From: an uncultured Syntrophomonadaceae bacterium
Lineage (GTDB): Bacteria; Bacillota; Dethiobacteria; DTU022
Length of the DNA: 64,000 bases
Assembly (NCBI GenBank): GCA_964492615.1
Contig: CAZBKZ010000006.1
Coordinates: forward strand, 18,712-82,711
Direction of reading: 5' to 3'
This document shows positions 2,493 to 17,236 of this stretch, in pieces. A program made the position numbers and the translations under genes. Each line of letters starts with the position of its first letter. Positions within the stretch are counted from its first letter, which is position 1. Below the pieces are notes generated by a model. The model did no database searches, was not told the origin of the DNA, and worked only from the letters and a program-made list of their open reading frames with translations.

Positions 2493-3278
2493 TTATTTGG
2501 CTTTAGCCTTATTCTCTTCTACACGCTTACTGTGCGAGCGGTTCGACCATAGGCCAATAGCAACAGCTATAACAACAAATACGCGTAGTGGAGCATATAT
2601 TGTATTCCATACTCGGGTCTGAATCGGCACCTGCGGATCGGCAGGAAAACCGTACTTCTCAGGTTTATCGGCCAACACATACAGCATTCCGGTGCCTCCT
2701 ACTTCATCCAAACCATATATAGTTGCATTTTGTTTGCCTGCAGCTTTCAACTCAGCAACCCTGGCCCTGGCAGTCCGTATTAACTCCCTGCTGTCACCAA
2801 AGGTTATGGAACCAGTCGGGCAGGCATTGGCACAGGCTGGTTTCAGGCCGCTTTCGAGACGATCAAGGCAAAAAGTGCACTTCCGCGCTTTGTTGGCCAG
2901 GCGATCAAAACCGATAACATGAAATGGACAGGCAGCCACACAATAGTTACAGCCAATACACTTTATTTCATCTACCACAACGGTATCATACTCGGTTCGG
3001 TAAATTGCACCGGCCGGACAGGCCATCATACAGGCAGCGTCATGACAGTGCATACAACCCTGCTTGACCATCAACCAGTCAACCCCGCCGCTTTCATTTT
3101 CATGTTCCCGGAACTTGATTCGCATCCAGGTAGTTGAAGAAAAACCAGGCGGGTTTTCATAGGTACCGGTAAATGTAGTCTGCTCAGCAGGGTTCTGATT
3201 CCACTGTTTACAGGCAACCTGGCATCCGCGGCAACCAATACACTTGGAAGCATCTATCAAACAAATTGGTTTAGCCAT
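2493..3278 (-). CDS. fdhB: Formate dehydrogenase iron-sulfur (beta) subunit with a C-terminal membrane anchor
   Basis: Four CxxCxxCxxxCP ferredoxin motifs (FdnH/HybA-like) and a C-terminal TM helix VFVVIAVAIGLW. Directly follows fdhA with no gap. Confidence 0.75.
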   Translation of the reverse strand: MAKPICLIDASKCIGCRGCQVACKQWNQNPAEQTTFTGTYENPPGFSSTTWMRIKFREHENESGGVDWLMVKQGCMHCHDAACMMACPAGAIYRTEYDTVVVDEIKCIGCNYCVAACPFHVIGFDRLANKARKCTFCLDRLESGLKPACANACPTGSITFGDSRELIRTARARVAELKAAGKQNATIYGLDEVGGTGMLYVLADKPEKYGFPADPQVPIQTRVWNTIYAPLRVFVVIAVAIGLWSNRSHSKRVEENKAKAK

Positions 3279-6200
3279 TTATTCTGCCCTCCTTACATTG
3301 CACAGAAATGCTTTATATTCAGGTATTGTAGTGTTTGCATCACCAACAGAAGGACTGAGGTCGTTAGTAACCGCTCCGGTACTCATACCCTTGAAGCCCC
3401 AGTGCCAAGGCAGTCCGACAACATGCTTCTCTTCACCATTAATGATCATTGGTTTAAAGCGCTTAGTGATACAAGCTTTAACCGTGATACCTTTTTGATT
3501 TCCGTCTTTAAAAAGACGCTTGCTTTCAACAACGACGTTCTCGCCATTTTTTATACCGAGTTCAGCTGCCAGTTCTTCACTGATCTCAATAAATAATTCT
3601 GGCATAAGTTCGTTCAGCCAGGGCAGGTTTCGGGTAACTATACCCGACTGGTAATGTTCAACTATCCGGTATGTGGTGATGATATAAGGATACCTCTCCC
3701 GTTCTTCATCAGTTTCTACCGTGTGGTCGGCATAAAATCTCTGGCTGACCGGATTGTAAGTAGCCTGCGGGTGTAACAGGTTAGGCACAAGGCTTTCAGC
3801 CGGCTCATAATGAACCGGGAACGGACCATCCTTCAAAGCGCTATGCGAATATAGCCTGCCCACACCTTCAGGTAGCATTATAAAGGGATTTTCAGTAATC
3901 TGTTCAAACGACCAGGAACCGGGAATATCAGGTATATCGTTACCTATCCACCTTTGGTCTTCTTCGCTCCACCAGACCACAGGGGCTTCAGGGTTCCAGG
4001 GTTTACCTTCGAGATCGCAGGAAGCGCGATTATAAACAATACGGCGGTTAAGCGGCCAGGCAAACGACCAGCCCAGGTTGGAACCGATTCCTTCCTTTTC
4101 CTTAACCCTGTTCTTGGTAGCAGGAGCTCCTTCATTGTTATAGTAACCGCTATAGAGCCAGTTACCGCAGGCAGTTGAGCCATCGTCGGCTAAACCGACA
4201 AAGTTAGTTACCAGGGAACCATCAGAGCTCTTATAACCATTCAGTTCCTTGCATACTTTTACAATATCGATTTCACCATCAGGGCTATCGTAATCCCAGT
4301 TCATGCTGGTTATCTGTTCGGGAACTACTCCACCCTCTTCTTCATACAATCCACGCAGGTTTTTAAACAGCTCGTTGACTATCCACAAATCCTGCTTTGA
4401 TTCGCCGGGCGGATCCTGGGCTTTCCAGTTCCACTGGATCCAGCGGCCGCTGTTCGCCTTGCTGCCTTCTTTTTCATAACCAATTGCAGCCGGCAGGATA
4501 AACACTTCGGTATCAATCTCTGCCGGATTCATATCAGGGCCATCCCAGAAAGATGCAGTTTCATTTTCAAATACATCCACTGAGACAAGCCACTTCAGAT
4601 TCTTCTGGTAGCTGCGTTTTGCTGCAGCAGACGGTCCGGAAACAGCCGGGTTATCGGCCCAGCAGATCATTCCCTCTACCTTGCCTTCACCCATATCCCT
4701 GTACTGGGCAATATGTGAGTGGTCTAATCCATCCAGCTTAGGCATCCACTGGTAGCCGAACTCATTGGCAGCCGTAGCATTATTACCGTAAAACGCTTTC
4801 AAAAGGCTGACAAAATACTTTGGTTTATGAACCCACCAGCCTGTTGCAGGAGTTTCCTTCTCCAGGTAATCAGCCAGGGTCGGGTGTGCACCCTGCTGTG
4901 GTGTGGACATATACCCGGGAACTATGTGATAAAGAATGGCCATATCGGTAGAACCCTGCACGTTAGACTGTCCGCGCTGGGCATTAACCCCACCGCCGGC
5001 AATCCCCATATTCCCCAACAGAAGCTGGACAACAGCTACTGCACGTACGTTTTGTGCTCCGTGAGAAAACTGGGTAATACCCATGGCATATAAAATATTA
5101 CCGGCTTTACCGGGCTCACCTGTTGAGCTGAACAACTCGTAAGATTCACGTAATGCATCAGGATCCGCCCCGGTGATTTTGCTGATATTGTCTATTGTAT
5201 AACGACTGTAGTGATTCTTGATCATCTGCAAAACACAGTTGGGGCTTTCGAAGGTAGTATCTTTAAGAACATTCCCTTCCGCATCTCTCTGATACTGCCA
5301 TTCCTCGGTATTATACTTGATAGCACTGCGTACAGGGTCATCCTCAGCGCCTGTAAACAGCCCGTTCACTTCATCAAAATCATAACCTTCATTGACCAGG
5401 TATGATGCATTGGTATAGTTTTCAACGTATTCCTTGTGGTACTTTTCATTCTCAAGGATATAGTTAATAAGACCGCCAAGATATGCAATGTTAGTCCCCG
5501 GTCGAATACTTACATATACATCTGCCACTGCGGCTGTCCTTGAGATACGCGGATCAACTGCAATGAGCTTTGCTGCCTTGGTTTGACGGGCCTTTTCAAT
5601 CCATTTCATCGAAATGGGGTGGTTCTCAGCAGTGTTACCACCTATGTTCATAAACACATCACTGTGCTGGTAATCATTCCAATGATTAGTCATGCAACCT
5701 CTTCCGAACGTGGCGCCTAGACCGGCGACCGTTACGGAGTGTCAGAGGCGGGCACAGTGATCAACATTAATCACTCCCATCGCCCTGACCATTTTGTGAT
5801 ATAAATAGTTTTCTTCGTTACTGCAGAAAGCACTGCCGAGCCATGAAATAGCTTCGGTCCTGTTAACAGTAACTCTCTGCCCCCTTACATCGGCCGTTTC
5901 CTGGTAATTTCTATCACGCGTATCTTTTATACGCCTGGCAATAGTATCCAAGATCCAATCCCAGTCTTTCTCTTCGTAACTGCTGGCCCCGGGTGCACGA
6001 TAAAGTGGCCTGGTTAAACGCTTGGGGTTGGGTACAGGCTTGCCTTTTTCCTCAAAGATGTAAGACAAATTAAAATGTGAACTACCCTTGCTGCAAAGGG
6101 TTCCTTCGTTAATAGGGTGACCTGGATCCCCTTCGGCATTTACAATTATGCCTTCTCTTACATTGCAAATAATACCGCAACCTACTCCGCAAAAAGTACA

Positions 6201-6356
6201 TGTTGTTGGAAACTCCTGGGTATACTTAATGCGCAGGGGTTCCGCGGTAGACGCATAAGCCTTATTCAGGCCAACACCGGCCAGTGTTGCCGTTGCGGCA
6301 GTCGCACCGGTAAGCTTCAAAAAGCTGCGTCGCGTCAACTGCATCAGTAAATCCAC
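3279..6356 (-). CDS. fdhA: Formate dehydrogenase alpha subunit, molybdopterin, Tat-exported, selenocysteine-containing (in-frame UGA at 5742-5744)
   Basis: Tat signal RRSFLK at the N-terminus, CTFCGVGCG Fe-S motif, and ...VDHCARL-TGA-HSVTVAGLGATFGRGCMTNHW... which aligns with E. coli FdnG ARV-U-HGPTVASLAPTFGRGAMTNHW. The track ORFs 5742..6356 and 3279..5693 are in the same frame, separated only by the TGA. Confidence 0.8.
5707..5733 (-). promoter_or_regulatory. Candidate bacterial SECIS hairpin downstream of the fdhA UGA
   Basis: mRNA reads UGA CACUCCGU AACGGUCGCC-GGUCUA-GGCGCCACGUU. This is a ~10-bp stem with a bulged U and a GGUCU apical loop starting 9 nt after the UGA; E. coli fdhF has a GGUC loop and a bulged U. 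Confidence 0.5.
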
Positions 6357-6359
6357 CTC

Positions 6360-7271
6360 CTAGTCTTGTCTGTAAGATAATTCCTCATCATTGACCCACT
6401 TCAAACCTGAACCTGGTGAAAAACCTTCCTTCCCAGCAAGCAGGTCATAACCCAGGGAAGCAAGGTTGTGAACGGGCAGGACTAAATCCCCATCCACATG
6501 GAAAGTTCTTGCATCATAGACCTTGTAATAACGGCAGCAAACCCGACAGTAATTAACCCGGCAGGTATCATTACCCTCCACTGTAAAGAAACCGAGATCT
6601 TCTCTCTTTTCATTACTGCAAAAAGGACATTTTACCCTGGGATGTACCCAGCGGGTTCCACATAACCAGCATTCTAAATGCTTAGCCCCGTTATCTGGAT
6701 GAAGCAAACCGTAATGCGGCTTTTTACCGCAAACAGGACAGTCCCCCCCTTCGTAGAGGTCGGTTCGCAGATCCTCTTTAATCAGTTTAAGCTGCCGCTT
6801 ATATAGAGAATACTTAGTTGTAGTAAATATTAAAGTGGCTAGATCTTCCGCAATTATGTTTTCTTCGATGATGTGTTTATGCAGGTCAGCTATCTCCTCA
6901 AGGGAAACCATCTTGCTATCTTCGGAGATATATTTTTCAAACATTTTTATAGCATTGGATATATTTTTTTTCAAGGCTAGATTGGTTTTTACAATTGTTG
7001 TACAAATCTCTTTAAAGACTGAACAGAAAGGTTCTCTGTCAACCGGTGGTCTGAGAACAAGACTAATATCCTTTTTCATTATATCAGTTGAATTGGCAGG
7101 CAAGAGGCTGCCTTTCTCAATCGGGGGAGCATGATCCGGGTGAACTTTAAAATAAGTATTTATCGAATCAAAAACAGACCTGATAAAACCGGATCCCGCT
7201 TTAAAATTATCGTATATTTTTATGCAACGCTCGATTTCCTGTTCGTAACCGGCCAACCATAAGTCGTTCAA
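6360..7271 (-). CDS. fdhE: FdhE-like formate dehydrogenase accessory protein (TTG start)
   Basis: ~300 aa with CPVCG..CWLCG..CPFC..CRVCCRYY cysteine pairs typical of FdhE. Its stop lies 3 nt before the fdhA start. Confidence 0.6.
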   Translation of the reverse strand: MNDLWLAGYEQEIERCIKIYDNFKAGSGFIRSVFDSINTYFKVHPDHAPPIEKGSLLPANSTDIMKKDISLVLRPPVDREPFCSVFKEICTTIVKTNLALKKNISNAIKMFEKYISEDSKMVSLEEIADLHKHIIEENIIAEDLATLIFTTTKYSLYKRQLKLIKEDLRTDLYEGGDCPVCGKKPHYGLLHPDNGAKHLECWLCGTRWVHPRVKCPFCSNEKREDLGFFTVEGNDTCRVNYCRVCCRYYKVYDARTFHVDGDLVLPVHNLASLGYDLLAGKEGFSPGSGLKWVNDEELSYRQD

Positions 7272-7695: not shown

Positions 7696-8664
7696 TTACT
7701 CGCTTACGACAGGCAGATCTTCCGCCAGCCAGCCAAGGTTCATACCACTGGCCAGTGACTTAGCATCAAACCCAAGCATTCTTAGCACACCCACGGTCTG
7801 ACCGGCAGTCTGCCCCGTATAGCAGGTAACCACGATCGGACGGTTAGTGGGAAGATCGCCAAGGATTTCGCCAACAGCAGCCCAAGGGCTGTGAACAGAA
7901 CCTTCAATATGCCCTGCAGCATAGTCATCAGCACTGCGGATATCAAGAACGTAGAAAGAGTTTGGATTTCCTTCCAATGCTTCTTGCAGCTCAGCCGGCT
8001 GGATAATATTGTTGCCGATAGTAGCTACGTCGGCAAACATATCCTGGGCCAGGGCCCAGAGGATTTCTTCTTCCTCGTTAGCCGGAGATGTCCCGGCAGA
8101 AAGATCTGCTGCCGCATTCATTCCTTCGCCTGTAACTTCATATTCGCTTTCACCAGTCCAACCGCGGGTCATACCGAGGCGTAAAGACTGAACATTATCA
8201 AACCCAGCCATTCTCAGCCAACCAACAGCCTGACCGGCAGTCTGACCGGTATAGCAGGTTACCACAACCGGCCTGTTAGTCGGTATGCGATCCATGATCT
8301 CTCCAACACTGGCCCATTCGCTGTGATAAGCTCCTTCAATATGCCCGGCTTCAAAATCTTCGGCACGGCGGATATCAAGGATAAAGACCGAATCAGGGTT
8401 GTCATCGACCATAGCCTTAACATCATCAGCATGAATTATATTTGTCGACTGGGCAGTTTTTTCGAAATAACTTACCGCCAGATTCTCGACAAGCGCGTCA
8501 ACATCAATTTCTTCTTCTACTATCTCGTCAACAACTTCCCCGACTGCTTCTTCTACTTCTTCCACCACTTCTTCAACCGCAGTGTCAGATCCACAACCGG
8601 TGAAACCAAAGAAGAGCATTCCAATCATTACAACAATAAACAATAAACTCAGGTACTTTTTCAT
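7696..8664 (-). CDS. Lipoprotein with an acidic E/V-rich tract and two tandem rhodanese (sulfurtransferase) domains
   Basis: Signal peptide with lipobox FTGC and an EEVVEEVEEAVGEVVDEIVEEE tract. The two duplicated domains each carry the catalytic loop CYTGQTAGQ. Confidence 0.75.
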   Translation of the reverse strand: MKKYLSLLFIVVMIGMLFFGFTGCGSDTAVEEVVEEVEEAVGEVVDEIVEEEIDVDALVENLAVSYFEKTAQSTNIIHADDVKAMVDDNPDSVFILDIRRAEDFEAGHIEGAYHSEWASVGEIMDRIPTNRPVVVTCYTGQTAGQAVGWLRMAGFDNVQSLRLGMTRGWTGESEYEVTGEGMNAAADLSAGTSPANEEEEILWALAQDMFADVATIGNNIIQPAELQEALEGNPNSFYVLDIRSADDYAAGHIEGSVHSPWAAVGEILGDLPTNRPIVVTCYTGQTAGQTVGVLRMLGFDAKSLASGMNLGWLAEDLPVVSE

Positions 8665-8750
8665 TAAACCAGTGATCCTCCTAAAAATTAATTATCCTAC
8701 CTTTATTAAAAACACAGCATATACCTGTGTAAAATCACTTAAATAACATT

Positions 8751-10040
8751 TTACGGGATATTCCTTACTACCATGTTGTAATTAGCCTGGCTTGTGCCCT
8801 CCTCCAGGTCACTTTCCCTGAGGAAGATAAATTCATTGCCGTGGCAGGAATCACAACTTTCATTCTGGACTGTCGAGCGCTGAACATTATGGGTTGGTGA
8901 ATACTTCCAACTGGCGATATTATCGTAATTAGGCACATCCAGTCCTATACCCTCGAGCATCTGTCTGGAACTGGGCACATGTCTCACCGTAATATACTTG
9001 TAAGGATGCCTGCCCTCCGGCTCCGGGTTTAAAGCAACTTTAAACATAACCCTTGACTGCCCCAGCGGTGCTATTAAAGAACCATCTGTATCCTGCTGAA
9101 TGTGACAATCAAAACAGTTATTATTCGATGTGCTGTGGCAAACCTGGCAGTTCATCAGATCTTCTGAATGAACCTTATGAGCTTCTATATCGCTATCTTC
9201 ATATACATTGCCGTGACAATCCATGCAGCTCGGCAGATCGACATCCCATTTGCGAACTTCCTCGCGTCCTGTTCCATGGAAGTTATTCACATCATGACAG
9301 TCCATGCAATCCATACCCGCTTCGTAATGAACATCACGGGCATAACCGATTGTCCCCATGTATTCTCCTGCCGTCCGGGCCCCATGACAGCCAAAGCAGG
9401 TATCCTCCATTGGCGGCTTTTCGGCAAACATATGCTCCGAGTGTAAACCACCTGTATAAACATAAGGCCTGCTCACATGACACGAACCGCAACTTGAATG
9501 ACATTTATAACAGGTTGAATCAAATGCTTCCTGTAATATATTCCCTTCTTCTGTAGTTGCTCCCGGATGGCCAAATTCCTCAAGACCAACTCTCATACCG
9601 AGTACAGTATAGTGTATGGCAGTATCAAATGTTTCTCCCACTTCAGTATGACATAATACACAAAGCGATCCTGCATCAGCCTGGGAAGGATAAACCTCCA
9701 TCCCTTCATGCGCTTCATCTTTGCTGCTGACATTTACACCCCCATGGCAGGTAATACAACCAAGCTCGCCATGAACAGTGTCTGTAAAATCAGGGTTAAC
9801 ATAAAACAGATCCTGACCCCCCAACTGGGGTCCGGGCACACCTCAGCCAGGGCCATCTGCGGGCGGTGGCACATCATACATGGCCTCCATCACATCAGCA
9901 TCAAGGTGACAAGCCATGCAGCCGTCACTTGGTGTGGCGCTTAACACAGGTGAGGTATTAACATATAGAGTAGCAACGATTAGAACAACAGCCAGCGATG
10001 CCGCCATGAAAATCAAAGTTTCTTTTCTACGTTTTGCCAA
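8751..10040 (-). CDS. Membrane-anchored multiheme cytochrome c (11 CxxCH) interrupted by an in-frame TGA at 9843-9845
   Basis: The 65-aa N-terminal ORF (TTG start, TM anchor, CMACH) and the 362-aa ORF (GTG, ten CxxCH, no signal peptide) are in the same frame and separated only by TGA plus one codon. Confidence 0.55.
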
Positions 10041-10224
10041 GCTATCACCCCTTCTTTAGATATCCGTATCTCTTGAGAAAAAAATCTCAAGCACCACCAA
10101 AAAAAATTGGTAAGCTATATATATTCTTTACTTTTTATTATAACATATGTTAAGAGCGTTTATTAAGGAAATTTCGCTATAAAATATTTTATAATACCTA
10201 TAAGTTATAGCTAATACCCATGAT

Positions 10225-12378
10225 TCAATTTTTAAATCTTCGCCATACCGCTATTGCTGTACCGGCTGCCAGCAGAAAGGAACCGACCATAAGCATTGAA
10301 ATCAAGGGCTTAATTTTCACTTCGATGATAAATGATTCACCTGAGCCGTCGCTAACACTTTCTATAGTCAGCCTGACCAAACCATTGTCAGCGTCTATAT
10401 CCTCCAGGGTAATAGTACCCAGCCCCGCAGTTTCAACGGGTATACTGTGCTTTCCCGCCTCATCATAGCGCATTAACGGCATGTATTCAGTAATCTGATT
10501 GTTTTGATGTATTTCAATTAATGCCCCAACTTCAATCACACCGGTCTGTGAGTGGGGTTCAAACTGGAAACCGTTAAATATTATTTTATAATCATTGTAC
10601 TCCACTCCCTGACCGGCAGCGAGCGTTAAGTCCTCTCTCTTTACATCTGACTGCACTTCCAAAGGGCTTATGTATAAATCCCTTGTAATATTGCGATGAA
10701 TAGCCGGCGAACGCATCAATCGCCCACCTGCCAGATAAAGATTTGGCCGGGCGGTAAAAGTTTTTTCTCCGCTTGAAACAATTATTTCCGGATAGTTGTT
10801 ATCTCCCTCAGTTACTATACCCTTGTAATTAAATTGGTAACCGAACGCTTCAACATTTTCACCCCTGGGCAGAATAAGCATCTGCGACTGTGTGTATCCG
10901 GTTGAGCCCAGCACCCCGGCAAAAAGTATCGCTAAACCGATATGGGCAATATAACCTCCTGAATATAACAACCCTTTACGAATTATTTTTCGCAGTGTCA
11001 TGAAGTTTACAACAAGAGCTGAAACAAGGGCAGCTACCATCAGCAGCCCTAAAAAAGTTTGTATACCTAAAAAGTATCCTGCTGCCAGGGCAGGTACCAT
11101 AATATAGAAAAGAAATTGGAGTTGTTTAAAAACCTGCTGGGGCTGTTCATTTTTCCAGGTTAATAGCGGGCAGAGGGTTAAAACCAGGAAAATCACAAAA
11201 ACCAGAGGCGCATTAGTTTGCAGGTAGAAGTTTTCATCCACACTTGCCGGGCTTCCAAATATCCCTGTCAGTAAAGGCGAAAGGGTTCCCAGCATAACCA
11301 ACGCCCCGGACAGCGATAAAACAATCAGGGTTATTGTAAAACTTCCTTGTCGCGAAAGCAGGGCAGCATTCTCCTTGTCTCGTGGAAGTTCTTTATAACG
11401 TCCAATTAAAACTAAGAGGCCGCCGAGGAAAAAGATCAGGAAAAATGAAAGGATAAAATATGACAATGTGGTTTCAGCAAATGCATGAACGGAGAACTCA
11501 GCCATTACTCCGCTTCTGGTCAGATAAGTAGCAAAAATAATCAGTGCGTAAGTTATAATAGCCAGCAACAGGTTACTTTTTACATATAATTTGTTCTGTT
11601 TCTGTGCTATAAGCCCGTGCACCAGGGCTGTACAGGTTAACCAGGGGACCAGGGAGGCATTTTCAACCGGATCCCAGCCCCAGTAACCGCCCCAGCCTAA
11701 TACCCTGTATGCCCAGGCCCCGCCGATAAGTATACCTGTTCCCAGAAAAAACCAGCCCGCAGCTGCCCAGGGAAGAGCCCGCAGCAGACCTTTCTGAAAA
11801 TCTTTTTTCCACAATGAAGCAACAGCATAGGCAAAAGGAAAAATAAGCAGGGCATAACCGACAAAAACTACAGGTGGGTGTATAACCATCCATGGATCCA
11901 TTAAAAGCGGATTTAACCCCATACCATCGGGCGGCACCATTCCCAGGTGATAAAAGGGGTTCTCAAGAAACAGGAAGAAAAGCAGAAAAAGCTGGCCCAG
12001 CATTACAACCGGGACGATAACCGGTAAAAGCTCTTTCTCGCGCTTAATTAACAGGTAACCGGCAATAGCTGTAATCAGCGCCCACAAAATAAAAGTCCCC
12101 TCCTGGCCGGCCCAGAAAGCTGATATAAGGTATTTAAAAGGCAGGTCTATACTGGTATGAGCATAAACATAGTAGTATTCAAATTTATGACTAATCAGGG
12201 CATAAAATAGATATATTGAGGTGATCAGCAAACCTGCCGTATGGATATGATAAAAATATAACGCCCATTTATTTTTTGTCAACTGTTTTGCAGAAACAGC
12301 ACAAGCCTCTCTTAAATATAGTATGGCAGTAATTAAAGCGGCCAAAAAAGCTACTATTATTCCTATATTGCCAATCAT
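10225..12378 (-). CDS. ccmF: Cytochrome c-type biogenesis protein CcmF (heme lyase)
   Basis: 717 aa, polytopic, with the WWD motif WGGYWGWDPVENASL. Confidence 0.8.
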   Translation of the reverse strand: MIGNIGIIVAFLAALITAILYLREACAVSAKQLTKNKWALYFYHIHTAGLLITSIYLFYALISHKFEYYYVYAHTSIDLPFKYLISAFWAGQEGTFILWALITAIAGYLLIKREKELLPVIVPVVMLGQLFLLFFLFLENPFYHLGMVPPDGMGLNPLLMDPWMVIHPPVVFVGYALLIFPFAYAVASLWKKDFQKGLLRALPWAAAGWFFLGTGILIGGAWAYRVLGWGGYWGWDPVENASLVPWLTCTALVHGLIAQKQNKLYVKSNLLLAIITYALIIFATYLTRSGVMAEFSVHAFAETTLSYFILSFFLIFFLGGLLVLIGRYKELPRDKENAALLSRQGSFTITLIVLSLSGALVMLGTLSPLLTGIFGSPASVDENFYLQTNAPLVFVIFLVLTLCPLLTWKNEQPQQVFKQLQFLFYIMVPALAAGYFLGIQTFLGLLMVAALVSALVVNFMTLRKIIRKGLLYSGGYIAHIGLAILFAGVLGSTGYTQSQMLILPRGENVEAFGYQFNYKGIVTEGDNNYPEIIVSSGEKTFTARPNLYLAGGRLMRSPAIHRNITRDLYISPLEVQSDVKREDLTLAAGQGVEYNDYKIIFNGFQFEPHSQTGVIEVGALIEIHQNNQITEYMPLMRYDEAGKHSIPVETAGLGTITLEDIDADNGLVRLTIESVSDGSGESFIIEVKIKPLISMLMVGSFLLAAGTAIAVWRRFKN

Positions 12379-12764
12379 TGATTATTATCACCATCCTGCT
12401 CGTACTTGGAGGGACATTTAACCAGAAGTTTCTCGGCAGCAAACAGACCATCACGATAATAGCCTACAACTACAATACTGTCAGCATGATCGAGGTTATC
12501 CGGCCTCGGACCTTCGTAGATCACTTTTACAGTTGTTCCTTCATCATCAGTAAGAAGAAACTGCAGCTTTCCGCTCTCACGGTCAAAACCAATTGAAGCG
12601 GGATCTTCAATATAACCCATAACCTGAACCTGTCTGGCAGTTTCGGCAGCTTCAGCAATAGTAACATATGGGTTCAGTGAAGACTGAAAAGAATACAAAG
12701 CCAGAACGGCAAAAACCACTATAACGGCTATTCCGATAATCCATTTTAATTTTTTATTTTTCAT
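12375..12764 (-). CDS. ccmE: Heme chaperone CcmE, CxxxY variant
   Basis: N-terminal TM, OB-fold region, and C-terminal LLVKCPSKYEQ where CxxxY replaces HxxxY. Real start is ATG at 12764 (MKNKKLKW), overlapping the ccmD stop. Confidence 0.75.
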   Translation of the reverse strand: MKNKKLKWIIGIAVIVVFAVLALYSFQSSLNPYVTIAEAAETARQVQVMGYIEDPASIGFDRESGKLQFLLTDDEGTTVKVIYEGPRPDNLDHADSIVVVGYYRDGLFAAEKLLVKCPSKYEQDGDNNQ

Positions 12765-12870
12765 GACGTCTCTCCAGCTTTTTAAGTCGCATATCAAGTC
12801 TGGCCAGGTATGAAAATATTCCAAACCAGGCAACCAGGCTCACTATAAGCACTATGTAAATATTATCCAT
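12754..12870 (-). CDS. ccmD: Heme exporter protein D (CcmD), 38 aa, absent from the ORF track
   Basis: MDNIYIVLIVSLVAWFGIFSYLARLDMRLKKLERRHEK is a single TM helix with a basic tail. It sits between ccmC and ccmE with ATGA-type coupling to ccmE. Confidence 0.55.
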   Translation of the reverse strand: MDNIYIVLIVSLVAWFGIFSYLARLDMRLKKLERRHEK

Positions 12871-12876
12871 GGCTAT

Positions 12877-13539
12877 TTATTCATTCTCCCTTCTATTGTT
12901 CTGCTCCAGGTTAATCAGGCGTGAAGAAAGATTAAAAATCCAGGCGTAAATCCCGGTAAACCCAACCAGGGAAGCGAGAAATACTCTAAACATAACTGCA
13001 TTCATCTGAAAACCTGATTCAGTGCTGATAATCGGGTCTGGATGAAGTGTAGCATACACCCTGGGTATTACAAAAACCAGAAAAGGCACTGAAATAAAAG
13101 CAAATATACTGAATACCGAGGAAAGCCTTGCCCTTCTCCCCTCTTCATCTACCGAAGAACGTAAGACAAAATAGGCACTGTAGATTAAAAGCAGGATAAA
13201 AATAGAAGTCTGGCGTGGGTCCCAGTTCCAGAAAACACCCCAGGTAAAACGGGCAAATACAGCACCGGTTATAGTAGCCAGTAGAGTAAAGATAAAACCG
13301 ATTTCCGCATTAACCGCTGCCAGAGAATCATCTTTAATCAGCCCTCTCCTGAGGAAGCGAACACTGTAAACCATTGAAATAAGGTAAGCTAAAACGCCAA
13401 CCCAGGCCAGGGGCACGTGAAAATAAATTATCCGCGAAAGATCACCCAGACCCATTGCCGGCGGCGCATATAATAAAGCAGCAACTATAACCAGCGCTAT
13501 CCAGATACCCAATGCACTTTTTAATATTGTTTTCAACAT
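12877..13539 (-). CDS. ccmC: Heme exporter protein C (CcmC)
   Basis: WWD motif FTWGVFWNWDPRQTS; polytopic. Confidence 0.8.
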   Translation of the reverse strand: MLKTILKSALGIWIALVIVAALLYAPPAMGLGDLSRIIYFHVPLAWVGVLAYLISMVYSVRFLRRGLIKDDSLAAVNAEIGFIFTLLATITGAVFARFTWGVFWNWDPRQTSIFILLLIYSAYFVLRSSVDEEGRRARLSSVFSIFAFISVPFLVFVIPRVYATLHPDPIISTESGFQMNAVMFRVFLASLVGFTGIYAWIFNLSSRLINLEQNNRRENE

Positions 13540-13608
13540 GGCAAACCTCTTTCAGGTAATAAATTGACAACTTCACAATATCTAATTTGTCATAATAAGC
13601 AAACTTCG

Positions 13609-14295
13609 TCAATCTTCCATGACATACGGTATTAATAAAAGTGAAGCAGTTACTACTATTACCAGGTATGAAAGAAGAAAAAGGAAATCAGTTTTAAGCT
13701 CCTCACCACTTCCACCGCCAAGAGCAATACCGGTACCGCGAATAACTGTCAGTAAAACCGGTAATAACACGGGAAAAGCAAGAACCGGAAGTAACGAACC
13801 CCGTGAACCAGCCCTGGCTACGACTGCAGCCAGTAATGTAGTTGCGCCCGAAAGTGAAAGAAGACCGGTGATACAGATTAATATAAGCAATGCAATATTG
13901 CTTCCTGATGGAGGATTCATCATTACATAATAGAGCGGAAGCATAACCACGATCAGGACAAGGAGCAAAAGGGTGTTGAATACCAGTTTTCCCGAATAAA
14001 TAGTTTCTGCAGTTGCCGACATTTTTAAAGCCAATATTGTCCCGCTGTCTTCCTCCTTGGTGAAACTCCTGTTTAAGGCTGACATGGCTGAGAAAAAGAC
14101 AATAATCCAGATTAAAGCGGAATGTAACATAACATCAAGAGCATATATTCCAATTGTAAAACTCACCGTAACCAGTGTCGTCAGAGAAAACAGGATCATA
14201 GCCGTCAGGGCGTGGCGGGTTCTGAACTCATCGATAAGATCTTTAGTTACTATTGCACTTACTGCATTTATCCAGGAAAAGGATGTTTTCACCAT
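13609..14295 (-). CDS. ccmB: Heme exporter permease CcmB
   Basis: Six-TM ABC permease. Probable start is MVKTSFSW; it overlaps the 3' end of ccmA. Confidence 0.7.
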   Translation of the reverse strand: MVKTSFSWINAVSAIVTKDLIDEFRTRHALTAMILFSLTTLVTVSFTIGIYALDVMLHSALIWIIVFFSAMSALNRSFTKEEDSGTILALKMSATAETIYSGKLVFNTLLLLVLIVVMLPLYYVMMNPPSGSNIALLILICITGLLSLSGATTLLAAVVARAGSRGSLLPVLAFPVLLPVLLTVIRGTGIALGGGSGEELKTDFLFLLSYLVIVVTASLLLIPYVMED

Positions 14296-14881
14296 ACTGT
14301 CGTACCTCCTCCTGATCATTGGTTGCTATTATAACCATGCTTTTAGATTTATATTCACTGATGATACTATTAACCACTATCTTTCCTTCATCATCCAGAT
14401 TAGTGTTCGGTTCATCCAGCAACAGCAGGGCTGGTTCATGAAATATAGCATAAGCAAGTTTCAAACGCTGTTTCATGCCAGTGGAAAAAACAGCTAGTGG
14501 ATAATCTATGCTTCCGGCAAGACCAACTTTTACAAGAATTTCACATAGTTCTTTCTCTGTCGGAAATGAACCACCCAACTTAGCAAAAAACAACATATTT
14601 TCCCGGGCAGTTAAATGCCTGTATAAGGCCAGGTCAGGGGTTACCAATCCGGTAACCTTTCTGATTTCGGAAACTGATAGTTCATCATTGTTAAAAGTTA
14701 TTTTAATAGACCCGGCTGAAGGTTTCTCCAGGCCGCAGATTAACCGCAGCAGGGTTGATTTGCCCGATCCGTTTGGTCCGGTAACCAGATTACATTTGCC
14801 CGGTTCCGGCTGCCAGGATATGCTGCTGAATACTTTTTTACTGTTATATATTTTAGCAAGTTTGTTAATTGTTATCTTCAT
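14243..14881 (-). CDS. ccmA: Heme exporter ATP-binding protein CcmA
   Basis: Walker A GPNGSGKST, ABC signature and Walker B LLLLDEP. Likely start is MKITINKL, preceded by GAAAGGG. Confidence 0.75.
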   Translation of the reverse strand: MKITINKLAKIYNSKKVFSSISWQPEPGKCNLVTGPNGSGKSTLLRLICGLEKPSAGSIKITFNNDELSVSEIRKVTGLVTPDLALYRHLTARENMLFFAKLGGSFPTEKELCEILVKVGLAGSIDYPLAVFSTGMKQRLKLAYAIFHEPALLLLDEPNTNLDDEGKIVVNSIISEYKSKSMVIIATNDQEEVRQYGENILFLDKCSKCNSN

Positions 14882-15084
14882 AAATGGCCCTTTCACATTA
14901 TAGTACATCTTAATCGACCCCTTAAAAAGCGTCAAGGACTGTCTTACCTGCTCCAACCGTGTATTGATGCCTGCTCGCAGGGCTGATAGTATTATGCTAT
15001 ACTGAATCTTAAGAATCGTAACTTTTTTGCCATACTGAAAACTGATAGACATTTGCATTTATTATAGAATATAAGGGGTAAAAT

Positions 15085-16005
15085 ATGGAAATTAGTCACC
15101 TATCGACATTTTGCAGGGTAGTTGAAGCAGGAAGCATCTCCAAGGCAGCGAAAGAATTATTTGTCAGCCAGCCTGCTATCAGCCAAAAAATACAGGAATT
15201 AGAGCAACACTACCAGGTCCAACTGCTTGACAGAACAAATAAAGGCGTGAGCCCAACAAAAACAGGTCTTTATGTATATGCAGAAGCGCAAAAAATCATT
15301 GCCCTTCTTTCAAACATTGAAAGAGAGATCGAGCTTACCCGCAACCCGGTGGAAGACCTGACTATTGGAGCGTCAAGCACGGTCGGTAATGTCGCCCTGC
15401 CCTGCACTCTCCTAATCTTCCGCGAACGTCATCCAGGTTTTAATATTACGGTGGATCTAGGCAATACAGAGAAAACGATCAATAAATTGCTCAGCAGACG
15501 CATTGAAATAGCCCTGGTGGAAGGACCGCTCAGCAACGAATGGCGAAAACAGTTTGATGCAGAAGATATCTGTATTAAACATATAGCCCAAACCAGATTA
15601 ATCCTGGTAGCGGCAAATGAGGGTTCATATCAAAAACATGAGAGCATGACTTTAAAAGAGTTAAGTGAAGCCCCGCTGATCATGAGGGAAAAAGGCTCGG
15701 GCATAAGAAACACAATTGAAAATACTATCGCTGAAAAAGGTTTTTCACTCAGCGATTTTAACATTATTTATGAAATGGGCACCAGCAGTTCGATCATTTC
15801 TGCGGTCACTTCCGACATGGGACTGACCGTGTTACCGATTATGTCTCTCAGGAAAGAACTTCACCACAAAATCCTCAAGATGATTCCTTTGAATAATATT
15901 GAATTTTTGCTCGACTTTAACCTGCTCTATAGAAATGATTCAAAAAAAATGTCACATAAAAATTTCATTGAGCTGATCAGCTCCAAAGAACGCGGCTTTT
16001 GCTAA
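15085..16005 (+). CDS. LysR-family transcriptional regulator
   Basis: HTH ISKAAKELFVSQPAISQKIQELE plus a LysR substrate-binding domain. Divergent from ccmA. Confidence 0.8.
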   Translation: MEISHLSTFCRVVEAGSISKAAKELFVSQPAISQKIQELEQHYQVQLLDRTNKGVSPTKTGLYVYAEAQKIIALLSNIEREIELTRNPVEDLTIGASSTVGNVALPCTLLIFRERHPGFNITVDLGNTEKTINKLLSRRIEIALVEGPLSNEWRKQFDAEDICIKHIAQTRLILVAANEGSYQKHESMTLKELSEAPLIMREKGSGIRNTIENTIAEKGFSLSDFNIIYEMGTSSSIISAVTSDMGLTVLPIMSLRKELHHKILKMIPLNNIEFLLDFNLLYRNDSKKMSHKNFIELISSKERGFC

Positions 16006-16042
16006 ACAGCCGTTATGCCTATTATTTTAATTACTACCCGCG

Positions 16043-17236
16043 TTAAATCAAATATCGCATATAGAGTTTTCCGCCCAGCAAAGAACCGATGATAATAAAC
16101 AGGCCAAAAACCCAACCGTGCAGAGAAAAAGAACTGATTCCGCTCCAGAAAGCTCCAAAATTACAGCCGGCAGCCATATTGGCGCTGAACCCGAGTAAAA
16201 ACCCTCCACTCAAGGCATAAATATAGCTTGGCGGTTTTCTGGGAAACCGCACCCTGAATTCTCCATTGAGCAAACTGGAAGACGCTGAACCGATAATAAT
16301 GGACACGGCGAAATAAAGAACCGGGTTTGTCCAGGCATCAGGATCACCTCTCTGTTGAATCCATTCCATAAAACCGGGCCAAAAAACAAACAGGGAGCTC
16401 GCCTGGTTAAGCACCCATCCCGACAAACCGGATACCCCATAGATTATACTCGCTGTTCTTCCCCAGGCGGGTAGCATTACAAGATGAAGCAGAGCTAAAA
16501 GAAAGGCCCCGTAATAATAATTAATTGGACGACCAACAAAAAGGCTTTTAACAACCCCGGGAACATTCCCTGCAATATTCACCCTGCCACTGCCGGGCCT
16601 AATCACCTTTCCCCGGGGTAGCCCTTCATAGCGGACAACCAGGTAATAGAGTAAAGCAAGAATAACAATGTAAACTATAATCGTCCAATGCCAGCCCAGG
16701 TAGTCGGGAATAAATATTATTCTACCGTAATTAAGGCCAGATGCATCCGGGTGACCGAAATCGAGGGATGGCAGGTAAGAACCGACCATAATACCGACAA
16801 ATACCACCCATTGACCGGCATAACCTTCTCCCATTCGCATCAGGCATCCGGATACACAACTGCCGGCCAGGATCAATCCAAAACCAAACAACAGACCACC
16901 AATGAAAGTGTTTAAGCCAACAGGCTGCAGGGCGCCTGAATCAATAAGATCTATGATTCCTGATATGTGCAGAATAAAAAATCCGATGCTGTTTACCAAC
17001 AGCAAAATAATCAGAGCCCGGGTCATACTGCCATTGCGTATCATAAAGATATCCCGGAAACCTGAAGCAAAACAGAACCTTGACCTCTGCAGGAAAAACC
17101 CAATTAAAAAACCAAATATCAACCCGAAAAATATATAAATGCTATAACCCCACAGATAAAATGCCTTTATCATAAAGACAACCACCAAGAGCAAAGCAAA
17201 GGTAAACTGTTTATTCCATTTGGCTGAAACATTCAT
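16043..17236 (-). CDS. YeeE/YedE-family membrane protein (putative thiosulfate / sulfur-selenium transporter)
   Basis: Polytopic, with two-fold internal repeats carrying conserved Cys in Gly-rich segments (RFCFASGF, AGSCVSGC, AAGCNFGAF). Confidence 0.65.
   Translation of the reverse strand: MNVSAKWNKQFTFALLLVVVFMIKAFYLWGYSIYIFFGLIFGFLIGFFLQRSRFCFASGFRDIFMIRNGSMTRALIILLLVNSIGFFILHISGIIDLIDSGALQPVGLNTFIGGLLFGFGLILAGSCVSGCLMRMGEGYAGQWVVFVGIMVGSYLPSLDFGHPDASGLNYGRIIFIPDYLGWHWTIIVYIVILALLYYLVVRYEGLPRGKVIRPGSGRVNIAGNVPGVVKSLFVGRPINYYYGAFLLALLHLVMLPAWGRTASIIYGVSGLSGWVLNQASSLFVFWPGFMEWIQQRGDPDAWTNPVLYFAVSIIIGSASSSLLNGEFRVRFPRKPPSYIYALSGGFLLGFSANMAAGCNFGAFWSGISSFSLHGWVFGLFIIIGSLLGGKLYMRYLI

What the first reader, a model, noticed from the sequence alone, without database searches (positions are those of the whole stretch)
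8751..10040. In-frame UGA joins a signal-anchored monoheme N-terminus to a signal-less decaheme body, suggesting a selenocysteine-containing or recoded multiheme cytochrome c
The sequence shows a 65-aa ORF (TTG start, TM anchor, one CMACH) and a 362-aa ORF (ten CxxCH) in the same frame, with only TGA at 9843-9845 plus one Gly codon between them. The 362-aa part has no signal peptide, so it could not be exported for heme attachment on its own. About 12 nt downstream of the UGA the mRNA forms GACCCC-AGUUGG-GGGGUC with GU in the apical loop, which has bSECIS-like spacing. The same replicon decodes UGA as Sec in fdhA. The UGA sits in a Pro/Gly linker (PPPADGPG-U-GVPGPQLGG), which is atypical for a catalytic Sec. 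Alternatives are programmed read-through, a sequencing error, or a recent pseudogene.
Basis: partly seen in the sequence, partly recalled or inferred. Interest (0 to 1): 0.75.

Follow-up and report, generated by a model that had tools for sequence, protein, structure and literature searches.

The report
Selenocysteine-containing eleven-heme cytochrome c family
The apparent stop codon splitting this cytochrome gene almost certainly encodes selenocysteine, which reveals a widespread bacterial family of 11-heme selenoproteins, paired with a sulfur-carrier protein, that databases annotate as truncated, signal-less fragments.

Summary
On the minus strand, 10040..8751 is one reading frame interrupted only by TGA at 9845..9843.

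Four lines of evidence say the TGA is selenocysteine (Sec):
- The same in-frame TGA (never TAA or TAG) sits at the same aligned site, motif G-x-G-U-G/A, in all 78 related genome loci where the site could be located. These span at least six phyla and include cultured Dethiobacter alkaliphilus.
- Several clades carry Cys at that site (GGCG, GEGCGG).
- A hairpin 16-17 nt downstream has an invariant wobble G in its loop and strong compensatory changes. It is absent from the one Cys-type and the one Trp-type locus examined.
- The same window decodes UGA as Sec in fdhA.

The protein is not a relative of the recently published MccSep/ExtKL. Its core is a distant homologue of octaheme tetrathionate reductase (OTR), but it has 11 hemes and lacks both OTR's Lys ligand and its Cys/Sec64. 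Its Sec lies on an added N-terminal segment.

A rhodanese gene is adjacent or fused in about 61 of 78 Sec-type loci.

The most likely function is an extracytoplasmic reductase of sulfane sulfur (polysulfide, or persulfide derived from thiosulfate). This is inferred, not shown.

I found no description of this family as a selenoprotein.

The parts
8751..10040 (-). Single gene for a 429-residue pre-protein: an 11-heme cytochrome c with Sec at residue 66. The stop is TAA at 8753..8751.
   Evidence: Searches show one frame and 11 CxxCH. Searches show the same architecture in 78 related loci.
9846..10040 (-). N-terminal segment: TTG start, export signal or membrane anchor, and the first heme motif CMACH (9920..9906).
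   Evidence: C41, C44 and H45 are invariant in 80/80 relatives. Homologues have lipoboxes, e.g. D. alkaliphilus LAVGC.
9843..9845 (-). UGA codon read as selenocysteine (residue 66), in the motif G-P-G-U-G.
   Evidence: TGA at the aligned site at all 80 sites examined: 78 genome loci, one metagenome contig and the window. One further locus has TGT. More Cys homologues appear.
9815..9832 (-). SECIS-like hairpin GACCCC-AGUUGG-GGGGUC, with its apical loop 16 nt after the UGA.
   Evidence: Searches show covariation, an invariant loop G at a wobble position, and 59/79 Sec sites fitting the bSECIS model against 14/395 control windows.
10045..10056 (-). Shine-Dalgarno-like AGAAGGGGTGA, ending 4 nt before the TTG start.
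   Evidence: Read directly.
10137..10166 (-). Promoter-like site TTAATA-18-TATAAT with an extended -10 TG, about 97 nt upstream of the start. This is a consensus match only.
   Evidence: 10 of 12 positions. The total number of promoter-like sites in the region is not above the shuffle expectation.
7696..8664 (-). Partner gene: a lipoprotein with two rhodanese domains (lipobox FTGC; active-site loops CYTGQTA twice).
   Evidence: PF00581, E = 1e-27. Adjacent or fused in about 61 of 78 related Sec-type loci.
10225..15058 (-). ccmABCEF cytochrome c maturation genes (System I), directly upstream on the same strand. This is the heme-attachment machinery.
   Evidence: CcmF, CcmE, CcmC, CcmB, ABC ATPase.
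5742..5744 (-). Context: the canonical Sec codon of formate dehydrogenase FdhA (HCARL-U-HSV), showing that this replicon decodes UGA as Sec.

Best explanation
The region 10040..8751 (minus strand) is one gene. Its product is exported by its N-terminal signal or anchor, receives 11 c-type hemes from the Ccm system encoded just upstream, and carries selenocysteine at residue 66. The UGA is recoded through a SECIS hairpin whose apical loop lies 16 nt downstream. The protein belongs to a large family that is not annotated as a selenoprotein: about 205 clusters at 50% identity with E <= 1e-30, and at least 597 places across the species genomes. The family's core is a distant homologue of octaheme tetrathionate reductase (OTR). 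An N-terminal extension adds two hemes, and the Sec loop sits between them.

Inferred mechanism: the neighbouring extracytoplasmic rhodanese lipoprotein picks up sulfane sulfur from polysulfide, S0 or thiosulfate as a persulfide. The selenolate of Sec66 attacks this sulfur, or the polysulfide directly. Electrons arriving through the heme chain then reduce the Se-S adduct to sulfide at the catalytic heme, probably heme 4, which is the counterpart of OTR's active-site heme 2.

Shown here: one ORF, the conserved TGA, Sec/Cys pairs, SECIS covariation, Sec decoding in the host, OTR homology, and the rhodanese linkage. Inferred only: the substrate, the role of Sec as nucleophile, and its position at heme 4. 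My confidence is about 0.93 that UGA is Sec, about 0.85 that this is an OTR-like enzyme family, and about 0.45 that it reduces sulfane sulfur.
For: (1) Nearly all of the 94 homologues found in the protein database begin just after the UGA site and cover about 82% of the read-through query. The one apparent 'Trp' version, P0019, is really TGA in its DNA.
(2) Among the best 80 species-genome loci, 78 have an in-frame TGA at the aligned site, in the pattern CxxCH-(20-40 aa)-G-x-G-U-G/A. One locus is cut off before the site and one has TGG. The phyla include Bacillota, Spirochaetota, Desulfobacterota, Nitrospirota, Chloroflexota and Actinomycetota. With one metagenome contig and the window that makes 80 sites; the stop is always TGA and is always followed by G.
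(3) Cys homologues exist: P0067 and P0099-P0104 (GGCG; TGT in the DNA of P0067) and divergent clades with GEGCGG, GGGCGG, DGCGG or GECCGG.
(4) SECIS: in an ungapped 76-sequence alignment, all 8 stem pairs show changes on both sides. There are 117 compensatory cells against 42 +/- 6 in shuffles. The covariation score is 0.475 against 0.154 (0 of 500 shuffles reach it), and slid controls stay at or below 0.237. The loop G is the third base of a CAG, CCG, GAG or CGG codon at 80/80 sites. 59 of 79 sites meet the bSECIS model, against 14 of 395 control windows (the model is described in PMC13188914). The Cys-type locus L002 and the Trp-type locus L076 lack the hairpin.
(5) fdhA in the same window carries the canonical Sec codon.
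(6) Cultured D. alkaliphilus AHT1 has the same split. Its downstream part matches DealDRAFT_1917, which is listed as a 10-heme protein with no signal peptide and is upregulated on thiosulfate relative to ferrihydrite (PMC10376724).
(8) Rhodanese is adjacent on the same strand in about 61 of 78 Sec-type loci. All 10 sampled neighbours are PF00581. N- and C-terminal fusions occur.
(9) Precedent: MccSep, a multiheme Sec enzyme in the ext gene cluster that also encodes the rhodanese-like lipoprotein ExtH, is a polysulfide reductase (PMC13510729).
Against: There is no direct evidence for selenium in the protein. No tRNA-Sec gene was found in the window, and I did not look for selA, selB or selD. 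The window's hairpin alone is not better than shuffles, and 20 of 79 sites fail a strict perfect-stem SECIS test.

The function is argued by analogy and gene neighbourhood only. The thiosulfate upregulation comes from one proteomic comparison in one organism, and I matched P0008 to DealDRAFT_1917 by its description, not by an accession number.

Some branches have Trp, His, Val or nothing at the site, so the residue is not needed for folding, and those members may be plain electron carriers. No quinol dehydrogenase or other donor is conserved next to the gene, so the source of electrons is unknown.
Confidence: 0.8

Rival explanations
1. The UGA is a true stop. The locus is either two genes (a 65-aa monoheme peptide and a separate decaheme protein) or a recently broken pseudogene or sequencing error.
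For: Gene callers and RefSeq annotate it this way, e.g. D. alkaliphilus WP_008516925.1, 354 aa. In the window a GTG follows two codons after the stop.
Against: The same TGA recurs at the same aligned codon in 78 species-genome loci from at least six phyla, and it is never TAA or TAG. Only 10 of 80 sites have an ATG nearby. The downstream part lacks any export signal, yet it needs extracytoplasmic heme attachment at 10 sites. Cys-type relatives are single ORFs.
Confidence: 0.02
2. The UGA is recoded, but not to Sec. It would be read by near-cognate or suppressor tRNA as Trp or Cys (programmed read-through), with the hairpin acting only as a read-through stimulator.
For: Real TGG (Trp) occupies the site in a Chloroflexia locus (L076). 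Other full-length relatives also show W there, although their DNA was not checked. A hairpin downstream of a stop can stimulate read-through in general (own knowledge).
Against: Cys, not Trp, is the recurrent replacement, and it keeps the motif G-x-G-C-G-G. The Trp forms lose the flanking Gly. The hairpin matches the bSECIS model in spacing (16-17 nt) and in having a G at the loop start. The host demonstrably uses Sec in fdhA. In the Cys clade, co-substitutions shift the charge in the direction that would suit a thiol replacing a selenol.
Confidence: 0.04
3. It is a genuine selenoprotein, but Sec does not catalyse sulfur chemistry. The protein would be an electron conduit or a terminal reductase for something else (Fe(III) or electrodes, tetrathionate, nitrite or hydroxylamine, selenite, tellurite, arsenic), with Sec tuning a heme or binding a metal or metalloid.
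For: The closest solved relative, OTR, is reported to reduce tetrathionate, nitrite and thiosulfate (as cited in PMC13510729). MccSep also reduces selenite. The profile also resembles the surface cytochrome OcwA (6i5b, E = 8e-7). Variants without Sec or Cys keep all 11 hemes. In the window the gene sits beside an exported FdhAB and a YeeE-type transporter.
Against: The nearly universal adjacency or fusion with rhodanese points to sulfane sulfur (or selenium) transfer. In D. alkaliphilus the protein went up on thiosulfate and not on ferrihydrite. Many host lineages are known sulfur reducers or disproportionators, such as Dethiobacter, Desulfobulbaceae and Ca. Sulfobium (the physiology is my own knowledge).
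Confidence: 0.3

Closest known systems
Octaheme tetrathionate reductase (OTR, Shewanella oneidensis, PDB 1SP3; NCBIfam TIGR04315), including its Sec-containing members
   Different: Ours has 11 hemes rather than 8. There was no TIGR04315 hit even at E <= 0.01. OTR's motif G-K56-K-N-S-x-N-N-F-C64, holding the Lys heme ligand and the Cys/Sec, is absent, and there is no Cys, Sec or conserved Lys between our hemes 3 and 4. Our Sec lies on an N-terminal extension between two added hemes, so it is not homologous to the OTR Sec site. Rhodanese is a near-constant partner in our family.
MccSep / ExtKL (GSU2937-2936), the multiheme selenoenzyme polysulfide reductase of Geobacter sulfurreducens (Mihara et al., Sci Adv 2026, PMC13510729; NF040886; PDB 9WT8)
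   Same: Both are c-type multiheme cytochromes with one Sec encoded by a UGA that splits the annotated gene, followed by a SECIS-like hairpin. Both are extracytoplasmic and have Cys-type relatives. MccSep's ext gene cluster encodes the rhodanese-like lipoprotein ExtH. Both occur in sulfur-reducing or sulfur-disproportionating lineages.
   Different: The two are not related in sequence: no NF040886 hit, and the family profile against the MccSep chains gives only E = 0.023. MccSep has 5 hemes against 11. Its Sec325 lies in a D-G-U-P loop of a C-terminal Ig-like domain, whereas ours is Sec66 in an N-terminal G-x-G-U-G. MccSep pairs Sec with a heme-ligating Cys239, and our protein has no Cys outside CxxCH. 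The taxonomic range also differs: MccSep is mainly in Desulfobacterota and Nitrospirota, while ours also occurs in Bacillota, Spirochaetota, Chloroflexota and Actinomycetota.
His/Cys-ligated heme enzymes of sulfur metabolism (TsdA, SoxAX)
   Same: There may be a functional analogy: a chalcogen side chain at a c-type heme forms a covalent adduct with a sulfur substrate. This comparison is drawn for MccSep in PMC13510729.
   Different: No sequence or fold relationship was detected here. Whether Sec66 ligates a heme is untested.

Membership tests
Bacterial selenoprotein (UGA recoded to Sec via bSECIS) | In-frame UGA conserved at the same codon in orthologues | tested here: met
   TGA at the aligned site in 78 of the 78 species-genome loci where the site could be located, plus one metagenome contig and the window. 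It is never TAA or TAG.
Bacterial selenoprotein (UGA recoded to Sec via bSECIS) | Cys-containing homologues with Cys aligned to the UGA | tested here: met
   P0067 (TGT in its DNA) and P0099-P0104, plus divergent GEGCGG, GGGCGG, DGCGG and GECCGG forms.
Bacterial selenoprotein (UGA recoded to Sec via bSECIS) | Stem-loop 16-37 nt after the UGA with G in the first two loop positions and MFE <= -7.5 kcal/mol | tested here: met
   The window has spacing 16, loop AGUUGG, a 6-bp stem and -10.5 kcal/mol. 59/79 family sites pass against 14/395 control windows. The covariation score is 0.475 against 0.154.
Bacterial selenoprotein (UGA recoded to Sec via bSECIS) | Sec-decoding machinery (selA, selB, selC, selD) in the same genome | tested here: inconclusive
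   fdhA in the window has the canonical Sec codon, which implies the machinery is present. However, no tRNA-Sec lies in the 64 kb, and I did not look for sel genes.
Bacterial selenoprotein (UGA recoded to Sec via bSECIS) | Selenium physically present in the polypeptide | not testable with these tools
   Needs 75Se labelling, ICP-MS or peptide mass spectrometry.
MccSep / ExtKL (NF040886) | Five conserved CxxCH motifs | tested here: not met
   There are 11 CxxCH motifs, all invariant in the family.
MccSep / ExtKL (NF040886) | Sec in a D-G-U-P loop of a C-terminal Ig-like domain, next to a His/Cys-ligated heme (Cys239) | tested here: not met
   Sec is residue 66 in G-P-G-U-G. There is no Cys outside CxxCH.
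MccSep / ExtKL (NF040886) | Sequence similarity to the family model or the solved chains | tested here: not met
   No NF040886 hit at E <= 0.01. The profile against 9wt8/9wt9 gives E = 0.023, 16.9 bits.
MccSep / ExtKL (NF040886) | Polysulfide reductase activity dependent on Sec | not testable with these tools
   This is an enzymology question.
OTR family octaheme cytochrome c (TIGR04315) | Shared fold and heme-core homology | tested here: met
OTR family octaheme cytochrome c (TIGR04315) | Score above the curated cut-off of TIGR04315, and eight hemes | tested here: not met
   TIGR04315 is not among the hits at E <= 0.01. The protein has 11 hemes.
OTR family octaheme cytochrome c (TIGR04315) | Lys56 distal ligand and Cys/Sec64 (G-K-K-N-S-x-N-N-F-C/U) before the heme 2 motif | tested here: not met
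   The segment between our hemes 3 and 4 has no Cys, no Sec and no conserved Lys. The OTR-family Sec at the C64 position was verified in L086. That Lys56 is the heme ligand is my own knowledge (Mowat et al. 2004).
Exported c-type cytochrome matured by Ccm | N-terminal export signal, CxxCH motifs, and maturation genes present | tested here: met
   The signal or anchor was judged by inspection, and homologues have lipoboxes. ccmABCEF lies directly upstream. ResB/CcsA genes sit next to the gene in 19-22 other loci (named from sequence resemblance, not scanned).

The most novel reading that the evidence does not exclude
Sec66 may be the distal axial ligand of the catalytic heme (heme 4, the counterpart of OTR's Lys-ligated heme 2). 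That would be a natural His/selenolate-ligated c-type heme. The Sec loop, supplied by an N-terminal extension, would replace both OTR's Lys56 ligand and its Cys/Sec64, and would swing off the iron to attack rhodanese-bound sulfane sulfur, much as the heme-ligating Cys of TsdA does. Three observations are compatible with this: the OTR ligand motif is absent, the protein has no spare Cys, and there are only 9-10 conserved non-motif His for 11 hemes. None of these shows it.
Probability: 0.2. Interest if true: 0.85.

Novelty: new variant of a known kind. Interest (0 to 1): 0.7.

Why it matters
Multiheme cytochrome selenoenzymes have only just been characterised experimentally (MccSep, August 2026). 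This finding adds a second, unrelated and taxonomically much broader family with the same three ingredients: a heme chain, one Sec, and a rhodanese partner. That suggests convergent use of selenium for extracytoplasmic sulfur (or chalcogen) reduction in Gram-positive bacteria, spirochaetes, Chloroflexota and Desulfobacterota.

It also has practical consequences:
- It corrects a systematic annotation error. Nearly all database entries examined, including the RefSeq entry for Dethiobacter alkaliphilus, describe a signal-less or 'cytosolic' decaheme fragment, and some are named 'sulfurtransferase'.
- It offers a candidate for the unidentified sulfur or thiosulfate reductase of organisms such as Dethiobacter.
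- A culturable organism is available in which the prediction can be tested.
- Comparison with OTR, where Sec sits at a different position in a homologous core, gives a natural experiment on how a catalytic selenol can be relocated around a heme active site.

Tried and rejected
- An Rfam scan of the UGA region returned only chance matches.
- Single-sequence folding of the window's hairpin was not significant (z = -0.42).
I therefore modelled a natural Cys-type relative, P0067. No coordinates are returned, so Sec/Cys-to-heme distances could not be measured.
- The exact 362-aa product is not on record in the contig index, so the host was not identified beyond 85% identity to an uncultured Syntrophomonadaceae MAG (L004).
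- I considered whether Arg191 (in CHVSRP) covaries with Sec. It is not conserved at 90% or more among the Sec types, so I dropped the idea.
- I tried to find the OTR-family Sec site from C-terminally short homologues. P0370 turned out to be a frameshift in a long-read assembly, not a Sec site. The real site was then found from N-terminally short homologues (P0442/L086).
- A literature search for OTR Cys64 found nothing in the library.
- tblastn with the window's rhodanese missed the divergent rhodaneses. Clustering plus Pfam was needed.
Full report
**1. The observation.**
On the minus strand, a TTG at 10040 is preceded by AGAAGGGGTGA. It opens 65 codons encoding a basic N-terminus, one hydrophobic helix and CMACH. 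TGA follows at 9845..9843, then GGT, then a 362-codon ORF with ten CxxCH, ending at TAA 8753..8751. Everything is in one frame. The read-through product has 429 residues, 11 CxxCH motifs and Sec at residue 66. All 22 Cys residues lie in CxxCH motifs. The downstream part begins VPGPQLGG and has no export signal. By itself it folds no better than shuffled sequence (z = -0.42).

**2. The split is conserved across the family.**
A search with the read-through protein returned 94 homologues. Nearly all are 320-370 aa and begin just after the UGA position, covering about 82% of the query. Two were full length:
- P0019 shows 'W' at the site, but its DNA has TGA, so the gene caller must have used a code that reads TGA as Trp.
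- P0067 has TGT, i.e. Cys.

A scan of one genome per species found at least 597 places that encode a relative. I walked upstream in frame in the best 80. Of these, 78 have an in-frame TGA at the same aligned position, in the pattern CxxCH-(20-40 aa)-G-x-G-U-G/A. One locus is cut off before the site and one (L076) has TGG. The loci come from:
- Bacillota (Syntrophomonadaceae-like MAGs, Tissierellia, Gudongella, Anoxynatronum buryatiense)
- Spirochaetota (Sphaerochaeta)
- Desulfobacterota (Desulfobulbaceae and others)
- Nitrospirota (Ca. Sulfobium)
- Chloroflexota (Anaerolineae, Dehalococcoidia)
- Actinomycetota

Adding metagenome contig L001 and the window gives 80 TGA sites. The stop is always TGA and is always followed by G. 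Only 10 of the 80 have an ATG within 12 codons after it. Cultured Dethiobacter alkaliphilus AHT1 has the same arrangement: a 75-codon ORF with a lipoprotein signal and CITCH, then GGGGG-TGA-GVAGPQL.

**3. Sec/Cys pairs and other variants.**
A Cys clade (P0067, P0099-P0104) reads GGCGAPPP or SSSCGG at the site. Among 50%-identity cluster representatives there are 205 with E <= 1e-30 and 687 with E <= 1e-10. Many divergent full-length members carry Cys in the same motif: GEGCGG (P0257), GGGCGG (P0268, P0302), DGCGG (P0236) and GECCGG (P0243, P0244). Others have His (P0240, GEGHSD), Trp or nothing recognisable. Trp is a real TGG in L076.

All 11 heme motifs are kept in the Cys, Trp and Val full-length forms that I aligned. 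The residue is therefore not structural, and the non-chalcogen forms probably have another role.

Five residues are invariant in all 80 Sec-type sequences: R222, E226, G229, H354 and Q387. In the Cys clade they become K, L/P/A, A, K/R and R/K. My inference is that removing a negative charge and adding positive ones would lower a thiol's pKa and so compensate for the loss of the selenol. Because this is a single clade, shared ancestry could also explain it.

**4. SECIS.**
The 45 nt starting at the UGA align without gaps in 76 distinct sequences. For a helix pairing columns 13-20 with 24-31:
- all 8 pairs show changes on both sides
- 117 cells are compensatory, against 42 +/- 6 in shuffles
- the covariation score is 0.475 against 0.154 +/- 0.018 (0 of 500 shuffles reach it)
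- controls with the 3' partner slid by 1-3 columns reach at most 0.237

Column 21, in the apical loop, is an invariant G. It is the third base of a CAG, CCG, GAG or CGG codon at all 80 sites, so this is an RNA-level constraint acting on a wobble position. Some lineages swap the encoded peptide V-A-P-L-E-P for V-E-P-L-A-P, which exchanges the two arms of the stem while keeping the pairing.

I also applied a strict perfect-stem version of the published bacterial SECIS model: apical loop of 3-9 nt, G in the first two loop positions, 16-37 nt spacing and MFE <= -7.5 kcal/mol (PMC13188914). 59 of 79 Sec sites pass, against 14 of 395 in-frame control windows from the same genes, and 55 of the 59 have a spacing of 16 or 17 nt. 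The window's own element passes, with spacing 16, a 6-bp stem and -10.5 kcal/mol. The Cys-type locus L002 and the Trp-type locus L076 have no such hairpin. Rfam holds no matching family.

**5. What kind of protein it is.**
Pfam sees only generic multiheme domains. No NCBIfam model reaches its cut-off, and three families are absent even at E <= 0.01: ExtKL (NF040886), the GSU2204 family (NF041027) and the OTR family (TIGR04315). These three are the CxxCH-containing selenoprotein families listed in a 2026 review of the prokaryotic selenoproteome (PMC13188914).

A local hhalign of the full-length family profile against OTR residues 4-236 gave 97.7% probability and E = 7e-12. In that alignment our heme 3 matches OTR heme 1, our heme 4 (CYKCH) matches OTR heme 2, and hemes 5-9 match OTR hemes 3-7. 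OTR heme 2 is the catalytic heme ligated by Lys56 (own knowledge, Mowat et al. 2004). Hemes 1 and 2, and the Sec loop between them, therefore form an N-terminal addition to an OTR-like core.

**6. Comparison with the OTR-family Sec site.**
An OTR-family gene (L086) reads ...ERGKVNALNNF-TGA-VSIEANWPRCTSCH. The UGA sits exactly where OTR has Cys64 (GKKNSINNFC64VAISSNEPRC74TSCH). Our family has no Cys, no Sec and no conserved Lys between hemes 3 and 4. The two families thus share a core but place their selenol on non-homologous segments. There are only 9-10 conserved non-motif His for 11 hemes, so at least one heme has a non-His distal ligand or an open distal site.

**7. Gene neighbourhood.**
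I clustered all ORFs from the loci. The only widely conserved neighbour is a rhodanese protein with one, two or four domains. It lies directly downstream or upstream on the same strand in about 61 of the 78 Sec-type loci, and most of the exceptions are short contigs. All 10 sampled neighbours are PF00581. Fusions occur at the N-terminus (L045, L058, L080) and at the C-terminus (P0006, P0018, P0093, P0201).

In the window the partner (8664..7696) is a lipoprotein with two rhodanese domains, each with an active-site Cys. Cytochrome c maturation genes are the next most common neighbours: ccmABCEF in the window, and two ORF clusters that I read as ResB- and CcsA-like (not scanned against Pfam) in 19-22 other loci. 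No electron donor is conserved next to the gene.

**8. Literature.**
MccSep/ExtKL of Geobacter sulfurreducens is a five-heme cytochrome with Sec325 on a C-terminal Ig-like domain, next to a His/Cys239-ligated heme. It is a polysulfide (and selenite) reductase required for S0 respiration (PMC13510729). Its gene lies in the ext cluster, which also encodes the rhodanese-like lipoprotein ExtH. That paper describes a family with five hemes, mainly in Desulfobacterota and Nitrospirota, and does not mention our lineages.

In D. alkaliphilus, DealDRAFT_1917 is listed as a 10-heme protein with no signal peptide and no transmembrane helix, sitting next to rhodanese DealDRAFT_1918. It was called a possible sulfur-reduction determinant and was significantly upregulated on thiosulfate relative to ferrihydrite. 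Selenocysteine is not mentioned (PMC10376724). P0008 matches that description, though I did not confirm the identity by accession number. Five searches combining selenocysteine or selenoprotein with multiheme, octaheme, cytochrome c, rhodanese, SECIS or UGA, and rhodanese and multiheme with Dethiobacter, turned up no paper that describes this family as a selenoprotein.

**9. Interpretation.**
That the UGA encodes Sec rests on four independent lines of evidence, and I put it at about 0.93.

The mechanism is an inference. The extracytoplasmic rhodanese captures sulfane sulfur from polysulfide, S0 or thiosulfate as a persulfide. The selenolate of Sec66 attacks it. The heme chain then reduces the Se-S adduct to sulfide at the OTR-type catalytic heme. 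This is supported by:
- the rhodanese linkage and fusions
- the MccSep precedent
- the OTR ancestry
- the thiosulfate response in Dethiobacter
- the sulfur-cycling lifestyle of many hosts

I put sulfane sulfur as the physiological substrate at about 0.45. Tetrathionate, selenite or tellurite, and a pure electron-transfer role all remain open.

The most novel reading still allowed by the evidence is that Sec itself ligates the catalytic heme.

**10. Verdict.**
The thing is not categorically new, since multiheme cytochrome selenoproteins exist. It is a distinct family, widespread and mis-annotated in nearly every database entry examined, with its own architecture, and I found no prior description of it.

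Noticed in passing
window 3279..6356 (-), Sec codon at 5742..5744: The formate dehydrogenase alpha subunit is split by the canonical Sec codon (HCARL-U-HSV). It has a TAT signal and is followed by a 4Fe-4S subunit (2493..3278) and preceded by fdhE (6360..7271). It is exported and lies just downstream of the cytochrome-rhodanese pair, so it could be an electron donor.
   Followed up: partly
window 15085..17236: A YeeE/YedE-family 'sulphur transport' protein (PF04143, 16043..17236, minus strand) and a divergent LysR regulator (15085..16005) flank the ccm genes. YeeE-type proteins are linked to thiosulfate and selenium uptake, which fits a sulfur or selenium theme for the locus.
   Followed up: no
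window 10225..15058 versus loci L013-L028 and others: The window has System I (ccmABCEF) maturation genes beside the cytochrome. In 19-22 other loci the genes beside it look like System II (ResB-like and CcsA-like, judged from sequence, not scanned). The cytochrome travels with whichever heme-attachment system the host uses.
   Followed up: partly
L045, L058, L080 (N-terminal); P0006, P0018, P0093, P0201 (C-terminal): Rhodanese and the Sec-cytochrome are fused into one polypeptide, in both orders. This is Rosetta-stone evidence that the two proteins work together.
   Followed up: partly
L001 (P0019) position 402..404; the JGI names: Two annotation traps. One database protein shows Trp at the Sec site because the contig was translated with a code that reads TGA as Trp. 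Many family members are named 'thiosulfate/3-mercaptopyruvate sulfurtransferase' although they are cytochromes, probably a name carried over from the fusion proteins.
   Followed up: yes
L076 position 3947..3949; P0214, P0240, P0137: Some branches have a real TGG (Trp), a His (GEGHSD) or a Val at the Sec position. L076 has no SECIS-like hairpin, and the Trp and Val forms I aligned keep all 11 heme motifs. These may be electron-transfer-only derivatives.
   Followed up: partly
L086 position 1498..1500: An OTR-family octaheme cytochrome gene has an in-frame TGA exactly at the position of OTR Cys64 (…NALNNF-U-VSIEANWPRCTSCH), and a TusA gene lies 200 nt downstream. This locates the Sec site of the 'GenBank-annotated' OTR-family selenoproteins in the active-site motif.
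   Followed up: partly
alignment A2 columns 13-31 (e.g. L046 versus L059): The peptide after the Sec alternates between V-A-P-L-E-P and V-E-P-L-A-P. This swaps the two arms of the SECIS stem while keeping the base pairing, so protein sequence is being shaped by an RNA structure.
   Followed up: yes
residues 222, 226, 229, 354, 387 of the read-through protein: R222, E226, G229, H354 and Q387 are invariant in 80/80 Sec-type sequences. In the Cys clade they change to K, L/P/A, A, K/R and R/K. They are candidate active-site neighbours of the Sec/Cys.
   Followed up: partly
window 8712..8730 (-) and 10074..10093 (-): A terminator-like hairpin with a T-run lies between the cytochrome stop and the rhodanese start. 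A 7-bp inverted repeat (CTTGAGA...TCTCAAG) lies in the cytochrome's 5' leader. Possible regulation of the ratio of the two proteins was not examined.
   Followed up: no
L085 2001..3447: An OTR homologue on a 377-kb contig is split by a frameshift, not by a Sec codon. This is probably an assembly error, and it shows that short family members are not all selenoproteins.
   Followed up: yes
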